Assembly (NCBI GenBank): GCA_000004985.1
Contig: GG738988.1
DNA: 13,986 nucleotides
Reading direction: 5' to 3' (one strand)
Source: Naegleria gruberi
Taxonomy: Eukaryota
A program made the translations under genes and the position numbers. Within the stretch, counting starts at the first letter, position 1. Each line of letters begins with the position of its first letter. The notes under the pieces are model-generated. The model saw nothing but the letters and a program-made list of their open reading frames with translations, had not been told where the DNA came from and made no database searches. Shown here in pieces: positions 9,095-9,193 of the stretch.

Positions 9095-9138
9095 GTAAGT
9101 TTATTCTACACACTGACAGTATTTCTAATTTTTAAAAG
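9095..9138 (+). other. Intron 3 (44 nt, GTAAGT...AAAAG) with CTGAC/CTAAT branch-like motifs
   Basis: Consensus donor, CACTGAC 20 nt and TTCTAAT 12 nt before the AG. Confidence 0.65.
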
Positions 9139-9156
9139 GTGAGATGTACTTCTCTG
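9139..9156 (+). CDS. 18-nt micro-exon encoding (G)EMYFS(D)
   Basis: Flanked by AG| and |GTAAGT. Inclusion gives HPVTGEMYFSDINNNVIRYV, which parallels SPKDEIFICDNNNIRKIV of the preceding blade. Phase is conserved (1 in, 1 out). Confidence 0.6.
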
Positions 9157-9193
9157 GTAAGTTTTATTCGAAACTATTTCTAATATTGTTAAG
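9157..9193 (+). other. Intron 4 (37 nt, GTAAGT...GTTAAG)
   Basis: Consensus donor, TTCTAAT branch-like motif; the acceptor follows an in-frame TAA. Confidence 0.65.

What the first reader, a model, noticed from the sequence alone, without database searches (positions are those of the whole stretch)
9095..9193. 18-nt micro-exon (9139..9156) between 44-nt and 37-nt introns
Two consensus GTAAGT donors 62 nt apart with an AG between them define an exon coding only G-EMYFS-D. Including it restores the beta-strand that precedes the NNN(V)IR(K/Y)(I/V) motif, exactly paralleling DEIFICDNNNIRKIV in exon 3. Gene predictors routinely skip such exons, and ORF-based annotation would truncate or frameshift the protein.
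Basis: seen in the sequence. Interest (0 to 1): 0.5.

Follow-up and report, generated by a model that had tools for sequence, protein, structure and literature searches.

The report
Already-annotated 18-nt exon in Naegleria
The 18-base exon is real on sequence and homology grounds and encodes one core beta-strand of an NHL-repeat propeller protein of the amoeba Naegleria gruberi, but the public gene model has included it since 2010, so it is an ordinary, already recorded feature.

Summary
The window is a whole 13,986-bp scaffold of Naegleria gruberi. The coordinates are exact. Intron 9095..9138 is 44 nt (GTAAGT…AAG). The exon 9139..9156 reads GTGAGATGTACTTCTCTG. Intron 9157..9193 is 37 nt (GTAAGT…AAG). 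Both introns are phase 1, and both carry TTTCTAAT with the likely branch A 10 nt before the 3' end.

Splicing the exon in gives …AFHPVT-GEMYFS-DINNNVIRYV… The six residues align with the conserved GNLYIA strand in all 39 bacterial or metagenomic homologues aligned. A profile built from those homologues gains 13 bits. AlphaFold2 places M165–D169 in a beta-strand at pLDDT about 97.

Only two splicing patterns keep the frame open: inclusion, or one 99-nt intron that deletes the strand.

The exon is not new. GenBank EFC35905.1 / XP_002668649.1 (NAEGRDRAFT_76433) already contains GEMYFS. No transcript evidence could be reached, so inclusion in mRNA is inferred, not shown.

The same public model looks wrong elsewhere. 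Its 378-nt first intron hides NHL-like coding sequence, and its last intron starts at a frameshift beside an assembly gap. The two short introns resemble each other weakly (p≈0.03). That is a faint, untestable hint of common origin.

Interest is low.

The parts
8232..8469 (+). Exon 1 of the annotated NHL-repeat gene NAEGRDRAFT_76433 (signal-peptide-like N-terminus plus the first blade, ending ...NIYYAES)
   Evidence: tblastn of P0001 onto the window: aa 1-79 map to 8232..8468 at 100% identity. Sequence read.
8848..9094 (+). Annotated exon 2 (AGGGS...DEIFICDNNNIRKIV...AYGIAFHPVT, plus the first base of the Gly codon). The open frame continues upstream to about 8791 (NRVKKVFFNSTINEFNMITI), so the true exon probably starts earlier.
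   Evidence: Extending it upstream raises the homologue-profile score by 17 bits.
9095..9138 (+). Intron 1: 44 nt, phase 1, GTAAGT...TTTCTAAT-N7-AG
   Evidence: It has stop codons in all three frames.
9122..9129 (+). TTTCTAAT in intron 1, a putative branch site (branch A at 9128, 10 nt before the last base of the intron)
   Evidence: The branch-site role is inferred from the yURAy consensus and is not tested.
9139..9156 (+). 18-nt micro-exon GTGAGATGTACTTCTCTG. It encodes (G)EMYFS(D), with both flanking codons split. This is residues G163-S168 of P0001, the second beta-strand of the blade.
9157..9193 (+). Intron 2: 37 nt, phase 1, GTAAGT...TTTCTAAT-N7-AG
9177..9184 (+). TTTCTAAT in intron 2, a putative branch site (branch A at 9183, 10 nt before the last base of the intron)
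   Evidence: The role is inferred.
9194..10102 (+). Annotated exon 4 (DINNNVIRYV... six further NHL blades ...GPALKP). It runs to within about 10 nt of the assembly gap at 10114.

Best explanation
The segment 9139..9156 is a genuine internal exon of 18 nt, most likely always included. It belongs to a Naegleria gruberi gene for a secreted-looking multi-blade NHL-repeat beta-propeller protein (NAEGRDRAFT_76433).

Two very short U2-type GT-AG introns flank it, of 44 and 37 nt and both phase 1. Each has a perfect GTAAGT donor and a TTTCTAAT element that places a likely branch adenosine 10 nt from the 3' end.

Because the introns are so short, each is probably recognised as a unit across the intron (intron definition). 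Under that mode the small size of the exon between them is no obstacle to the spliceosome.

The exon supplies exactly one structural element: the second beta-strand (MYFSD) of the third blade of the annotated protein. Leaving it out keeps the reading frame but deletes that strand.

What is shown: the sequence signals, the frame logic, the fit to homologues, the predicted strand, and the exon's presence in the public gene model. What is inferred: actual use of these splice sites in mRNA, intron-definition recognition, and the branch-site assignment.
For: - Coordinates and signals were read directly.
- By enumerating the GT and AG sites in 9085-9200 by eye (sequence), only two patterns keep the frame open into the 300-codon downstream exon: 9095..9138 plus 9157..9193, or a single intron 9095..9193. 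Retaining either intron meets a stop codon.
- All 39 aligned homologues carry G-N-L-Y-I-A where P0001 has G-E-M-Y-F-S, with no gap. The two closest homologues lie in bacterial gene neighbourhoods as uninterrupted ORFs.
- Homologue-only profile: 238.5 bits with the exon, 225.0 without; local domain 63.0 against 50.2. Pfam TEN_NHL: 77.7 against 69.9.
- AlphaFold2: strand 165-169, with block pLDDT of 97.
- Chance estimates are 0.36% for the splice architecture and 1.2% for the peptide fit.
- The public model EFC35905.1 / XP_002668649.1 contains GEMYFS.
- Introns of at least 30 nt are accepted for the genus: a 30-bp minimum intron length was used to map Naegleria fowleri RNA-seq (PMC8296547).
Against: - No transcript evidence was reachable. 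A short-peptide search returned nothing, not even P0001, so it is uninformative. The metagenome scans found nothing relevant.
- The public model may itself be homology-driven, so it is not independent proof of splicing.
- E164 and M165 are not the residues seen in the homologues (N and L), so the raw profile score of the hexapeptide is only +1.2 bits.
- The Pfam single-repeat NHL model does not register this blade with or without the exon (58.1 against 58.4 bits).
- The average N. gruberi intron is 203 bp and genes average 1.7 exons (PMC8296547), so two introns under 45 nt side by side are not the typical architecture.
- The same gene shows apparent frameshifts elsewhere, so it could be decaying or poorly sequenced.
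Confidence: 0.85

Rival explanations
1. The whole stretch 9095..9193 is removed as a single 99-nt intron. The internal AG and second GTAAGT would then be unused or only occasionally used, so the 18-nt exon is skipped in the main mRNA or in a substantial alternative isoform.
For: Skipping keeps the reading frame because 18 is a multiple of 3. The protein without the exon still scores well above the Pfam thresholds. A frame-preserving length is the usual property of alternatively spliced micro-exons (general knowledge). Exon skipping has been detected in N. gruberi transcriptomes in general (PMC6142364).
Against: Skipping removes a core strand that every aligned homologue keeps. It costs 13 bits against the homologue profile. 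The strand is modelled at pLDDT about 97 as an integral part of the blade. An in-frame, strand-like hexapeptide bounded by a perfect donor would be a coincidence of roughly 0.0036 x 0.012.
Confidence: 0.08
2. The locus is a decaying or non-expressed gene copy. The splice signals would then be relics, and asking which isoform is made is moot.
For: NHL-like coding sequence lies out of frame inside the annotated 378-nt first intron, and there is a frameshift just before the gap. No orthologue or close paralogue appeared among the top 120 hits. P0001 is the only member of its cluster and was seen on one contig.
Against: About 300 codons stay open downstream of the micro-exon, and both introns have perfect signals. 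The frameshifts sit in a G run and at a read end next to an N gap of a small, gapped scaffold, where sequencing errors are the simpler explanation. The AlphaFold2 model is confident over residues 90-460.
Confidence: 0.05
3. This is an account of origin and is compatible with the best explanation. The two introns would be copies of one another: one intron was duplicated or re-inserted 62 nt away (reverse splicing, or a small duplication), and that split off the 18-nt exon.
For: The introns align at 30 of 37 positions. The alignment score is 16.5 against 10.6 ± 2.8 for shuffles that keep GTAAGT, CTAAT-N7-AG and composition; 141 of 5000 shuffles reach it. An 18-nt direct repeat is 83% identical. 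The two share the same phase and the same branch-to-3' distance. The closest relatives of the gene are intronless bacterial ORFs, so the introns may be gains.
Against: p≈0.03 is weak, and the null model ignores any extended Naegleria splice consensus (GTAAGTTT, TTTCTAAT) that would produce the same similarity. The sequences are AT-rich and of low complexity. The window holds no further copies outside coding ATTAGAAA matches. No genome-wide intron set was available for comparison.
Confidence: 0.1

Closest known systems
GenBank/RefSeq gene model NAEGRDRAFT_76433 (EFC35905.1, XP_002668649.1, UniProt D2W4U7_NAEGR), predicted protein of Naegleria gruberi NEG-M
   Same: It is the same locus. The 556-aa product is 100% identical to the spliced translation and contains ...HPVTGEMYFSDINNNVIRYV..., so it uses exactly the two introns and the 18-nt exon described.
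   Different: Nothing differs at the micro-exon. Elsewhere the model skips 8470..8847 and jumps from about 10102 across the gap to 13640..13900. Both junctions look doubtful.
Micro-exons (internal exons of about 30 nt or less) in eukaryotic genes, including the regulated neuronal micro-exons of animals (my own knowledge; not checked in the papers read here)
   Same: It is a very short internal exon of frame-preserving length (18 nt) with strong flanking splice signals. It encodes a small piece of a folded domain.
   Different: It sits between two introns under 45 nt in a protist whose genes average 1.7 exons. It encodes a buried core strand rather than a surface loop, so regulated skipping is unlikely. 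No evidence of regulation was obtained. A full-text search found no paper dealing with micro-exons in Naegleria: the two papers that hold both words each hold them once, and I did not read them.
Bacterial multi-blade NHL-repeat proteins (Pfam PF01436 / PF25021; many are labelled 'sugar lactone lactonase YvrE' by JGI)
   Same: They are 27-35% identical over more than 90% of the query and share the repeat consensus P.GVA.D..GNLYIAD..N.RIRKV...G.I.TVAG.G.
   Different: They are uninterrupted ORFs in bacterial gene neighbourhoods. The Naegleria gene has spliceosomal introns and a hydrophobic N-terminus.

Membership tests
U2-type GT-AG spliceosomal introns (both 9095..9138 and 9157..9193) | GT at the 5' end and AG at the 3' end, with a donor close to the GTAAGT consensus | tested here: met
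   Both begin GTAAGT and end AAG.
U2-type GT-AG spliceosomal introns (both 9095..9138 and 9157..9193) | Removal restores a continuous reading frame, while retention interrupts it | tested here: met
   Stop codons occur in every frame of both introns. The spliced product is open and collinear with the homologues.
U2-type GT-AG spliceosomal introns (both 9095..9138 and 9157..9193) | A branch-site-like yURAy element a short distance upstream of the 3' AG | tested here: inconclusive
   CTAAT lies 7 nt before the AG in both introns. No Naegleria branch-site consensus was available to test it against, and the only other convincing intron in the gene lacks the motif.
U2-type GT-AG spliceosomal introns (both 9095..9138 and 9157..9193) | The junctions are observed in mRNA | not testable with these tools
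   No Naegleria transcript data could be reached.
Micro-exon (internal exon of about 30 nt or less) | Internal position, flanked by an acceptor and a donor, length about 30 nt or less | tested here: met
   It is 18 nt long, with AG at 9137-9138 and GT at 9157-9158.
Micro-exon (internal exon of about 30 nt or less) | The encoded residues are required for collinearity with homologous proteins | tested here: met
   GEMYFS aligns to the GNLYIA columns in 39 of 39 homologues. Including it adds 13 bits.
NHL-repeat beta-propeller proteins (Pfam PF01436 NHL, PF25021 TEN_NHL) | Score above the curated Pfam cut-offs | tested here: met
   NHL scores 58.1 bits (cut-off 20). TEN_NHL scores 77.7 bits (cut-off 27.1).
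NHL-repeat beta-propeller proteins (Pfam PF01436 NHL, PF25021 TEN_NHL) | Repeated four-stranded beta-sheet blades | tested here: met
   The AlphaFold2 model shows successive groups of four strands over residues 100-456, with pLDDT mostly 85-98. I did not run a fold comparison against solved propellers.
Introner-like or duplicated introns | Sequence similarity between introns beyond the splice signals, with multiple copies in the genome | tested here: inconclusive
   The pairwise similarity has p≈0.03. The window holds no other copies. The genome was not available. Most of the 24 metagenome hits to the shared motif fall in what reads as one conserved coding sequence.

The most novel reading that the evidence does not exclude
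The two introns that flank the micro-exon are recent sister copies. One short intron would have been re-inserted or duplicated 62 nt from itself in a gene of bacterial ancestry, splitting off an 18-nt exon. The locus would then be a caught-in-the-act example of intron gain by intron propagation in a heterolobosean.
Probability: 0.08. Interest if true: 0.45.

Novelty: already known. Interest (0 to 1): 0.1.

Why it matters
It matters little beyond this gene. The exon is needed for a correct protein sequence because it encodes one core strand of a propeller blade, and the public record already has it. The case shows that a reader working from sequence alone can recover an 18-nt exon correctly. 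It also shows that very short exons between very short introns occur in Naegleria. The more useful practical result is that the same public model (XP_002668649.1) is probably wrong at its first and last introns.

Tried and rejected
- **Transcript evidence through the protein collection.** A 98-aa query centred on the micro-exon returned one candidate and no hit, not even P0001. The negative is therefore uninformative.
- **Exact look-up of P0001's contig.** It is not on record.
- **Orthologous loci in metagenomes.** 206 pattern matches were found, and tblastn confirmed none.
- **Further copies of the shared intron motif in metagenomes.** There were 24 single matches. Most fall in what reads as one conserved coding sequence (…VSLIPDFISNCGMA…), and none sits in a Naegleria-like context.
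- **RNA structure or a known RNA family in or around the introns.** The fold z-score is +0.45, and the only Rfam match is far below threshold.
- **Excess of TTTCTAAT in the window (19 against 1.3 expected).** This is not an intron signal. Twelve of the hits are the reverse complement of the IRK codons ATTAGAAA in the tandem repeats of the minus-strand NHL gene.
- **Other acceptor and donor combinations in 9085-9200.** I enumerated them by eye: acceptors after 9119 or 9143, and the donors GTGAGA at 9139 and GTACTT at 9146. All give stop codons or introns of 25 nt or less (sequence).
- **Literature.** I found no paper on Naegleria micro-exons or NHL genes. The N. gruberi genome paper itself is not held.

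Full report
**Where the window comes from.** A protein search with the spliced translation returned a single 100%-identical entry, 'predicted protein [Naegleria gruberi]', 556 aa. Its only contig is 13,986 bp long, exactly the window length. Its accessions are EFC35905.1, XP_002668649.1, UniProt D2W4U7_NAEGR and locus tag NAEGRDRAFT_76433. The window is therefore a small, gapped scaffold of N. gruberi NEG-M, with N runs at 1135-4124 and 10114-12072. Its 30-39% G+C fits the published 33% for the genome (PMC8296547).

**The observation.** Every coordinate in the finding is exact.
- GTAAGT lies at 9095 and at 9157.
- Intron 1 is 9095..9138, 44 nt: GTAAGTTTATTCTACACACTGACAGTATTTCTAATTTTTAAAAG.
- The exon is 9139..9156: GTGAGATGTACTTCTCTG.
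- Intron 2 is 9157..9193, 37 nt: GTAAGTTTTATTCGAAACTATTTCTAATATTGTTAAG.
- Both introns are phase 1. The Gly codon is split G|GT and the Asp codon G|AT.
- The spliced reading is ...AYGIAFHPVT-GEMYFS-DINNNVIRYV..., parallel to ...YPVCIAVSPKDEIFICDNNNIRKIV in the previous exon.

GTAAGT occurs only three times on the + strand of the window, and two of those are these donors. In 100,000 shuffles of the interior of a 99-nt intron, 0.36% produced an in-frame, stop-free AG..GTRAGT mini-exon with both introns at least 30 nt long. Only 1.2% of stop-free random hexapeptides fit the homologues' strand profile as well as GEMYFS.

**What it is.** The gene encodes a multi-blade NHL-repeat protein: Pfam NHL 58.1 bits and TEN_NHL 77.7 bits.

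I aligned P0001 with its 39 best homologues. These are 27-35% identical, come mostly from bacteria or metagenomes, and the two closest are uninterrupted ORFs in bacterial neighbourhoods. The six micro-exon residues G-E-M-Y-F-S occupy the columns G(36/39) N(31) L(32) Y/F(36) I/V/F(38) A/S/T(35). No homologue has a gap there.

A profile built from the homologues alone scores 238.5 bits with the exon and 225.0 without. The local domain scores 63.0 against 50.2. Pfam TEN_NHL rises from 69.9 to 77.7 bits. The single-repeat NHL model does not register this blade either way.

AlphaFold2 on P0001 with this alignment gave mean pLDDT 77 and pTM 0.70. Around the exon it predicts strands 153-158 (AYGIAF), 165-169 (MYFSD), 174-178 (VIRYV) and 183-189, with block pLDDT 95-97. 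This mirrors strands 100-105, 111-115 and 118-123 of the preceding blade.

**Alternatives at the RNA level.** I enumerated the GT and AG sites between 9085 and 9200 by eye. Only two patterns keep the frame open into the 300-codon downstream exon:
- the two-intron pattern;
- a single 99-nt intron that skips the exon.

Retaining either intron meets a stop codon. The acceptors after 9119 or 9143 give a 25-nt intron or a stop. The exon begins with GTGAG, a donor-like sequence directly at the acceptor, but using it has no open-frame outcome. Skipping would delete a conserved, confidently modelled strand, so I regard constitutive inclusion as much more likely (0.85 against about 0.08).

**How it likely works.** This part is inference. 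Each intron has a perfect donor and the element TTTCTAAT, which places a probable branch A (9128 and 9183) 10 nt before the intron's last base. The geometry is identical in the two introns. Introns this short are expected to be recognised across the intron, so an 18-nt exon poses no recognition problem.

A 30-bp minimum intron length has been used for Naegleria fowleri RNA-seq mapping (PMC8296547). The N. gruberi average is 203 bp with 1.7 exons per gene (same source). A pair of introns under 45 nt is thus at the short end for this genome, but not implausible.

**What could not be shown.** No transcript data were reachable. A short-peptide search returned nothing at all. The contig look-up for P0001 had no record. 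The metagenome scans were empty or irrelevant. N. gruberi RNA-seq exists under PRJEB23822 (PMC6142364) and would settle the matter. The public model may have been built by homology, so it is not independent evidence of splicing.

**Novelty.** The exon is in the public CDS, so the feature is already known.

**Origin of the intron pair.** This is speculative. The two introns align at 30 of 37 positions. The score is 16.5 against 10.6 ± 2.8 for shuffles that keep the splice signals, and 141 of 5000 shuffles reach it. They also share an 18-nt direct repeat at 83% identity. With the same phase and geometry, in a gene whose nearest relatives are intronless bacterial genes, this is a faint hint that one intron derives from the other. 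An extended Naegleria splice consensus would explain it equally well. I could not obtain a genome-wide intron set to decide between the two.

**Side findings on the same gene model.**
1. The annotated first intron (8470..8847, 378 nt) contains NHL-like reading frames in three different frames:
   - GYGISHYFAGAPNYQAGVGSDSLAFANDSLTNPYGVAINSKGEVFITTTR (8480-8616);
   - AYLVVWIDE (about 8755-8781);
   - NRVKKVFFNSTINEFNMITI, which runs straight into exon 2.

   Restoring them raises the homologue-profile score by 17-21 bits. AlphaFold2 confidence drops below 50 at the annotated junction, residues 80-84.
2. Just before the gap the frame shifts again. ...GPA is followed in another frame by IEAKLNG, which matches the repeat consensus. 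The annotated donor there is a poor GTTAAA. The annotated last intron spans the N gap and a minus-strand ORF. The C-terminal 90 residues have pLDDT below 50.

These points suggest sequencing indels in a low-coverage scaffold, with a gene model that spliced around them.

Noticed in passing
window 8470..8847 (+): The annotated 378-nt first intron of NAEGRDRAFT_76433 is not intron-like. It holds NHL-blade-like reading frames in three different frames: GYGISHYFAGAPNYQAGVGSDSLAFANDSLTNPYGVAINSKGEVFITTTR; TDVGMYPK and AYLVVWIDE; and NRVKKVFFNSTINEFNMITI, which runs into exon 2. Restoring them adds 17-21 bits against the homologue profile, and AlphaFold2 confidence falls below 50 at the annotated junction (residues 80-84). 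The cause is either sequencing indels (for example in the GGG run at 8468-8470), a mis-called intron, or decayed blades that are now spliced out.
   Followed up: partly
window 10085..10113 and 13640..13900 (+): Immediately before the assembly gap the frame shifts. ...VDGPA is followed in another frame by IEAKLNG, which matches the repeat consensus GDGGPAxxAxLNxP. The annotated frame instead hits TAA at 10105. The public model escapes through a weak GTTAAA donor and a roughly 3.5-kb intron that spans the N gap and a minus-strand ORF, joining an exon at 13640..13900. The residues from that exon are modelled at pLDDT below 50. The C-terminus of the public protein is probably an artefact.
   Followed up: partly
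window 5263..7488 (-): An intronless 741-aa ORF encodes a paralogous protein with six or more nearly identical 56-aa NHL repeats (168-nt tandem units) followed by a BTB/POZ domain (Pfam NHL 143.5 bits, BTB 42.4 bits). It is about 30% identical to the + strand gene. The near-identity of its repeats suggests recent internal amplification or homogenisation.
   Followed up: partly
window 9122..9129, 9177..9184 versus 8956..8980: The TTTCTAAT element shared by both introns is the reverse complement of ATTAGAAA, the I-R-K codons of the NHL motif. Intron 2 is 93% complementary over 14 nt to the exon sequence AATAATATTAGAAA (N-N-I-R-K), and intron 1 is 77% complementary over 22 nt. This is probably chance in AT-rich sequence. 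The region shows no excess RNA folding (z = +0.45).
   Followed up: partly
window 9139..9144: The micro-exon starts with GTGAGA, so the acceptor junction reads AAAG|GTGAGA and itself looks like a 5' splice site. Using it as a donor gives no open frame.
   Followed up: yes
They are 27-35% identical, and the two closest lie in bacterial gene neighbourhoods. No other Naegleria or eukaryotic protein appeared in the top 120. This is compatible with bacterial ancestry of the gene followed by intron gain, but no phylogeny was made.
   Followed up: no
window 12073..13185 (-) and 4145..4636 (+): Two further long ORFs have no Pfam match. One is a 371-aa minus-strand ORF that runs into the second gap and lies inside the annotated last intron of the NHL gene. 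The other is a 163-aa hydrophobic ORF just after the first gap.
   Followed up: partly
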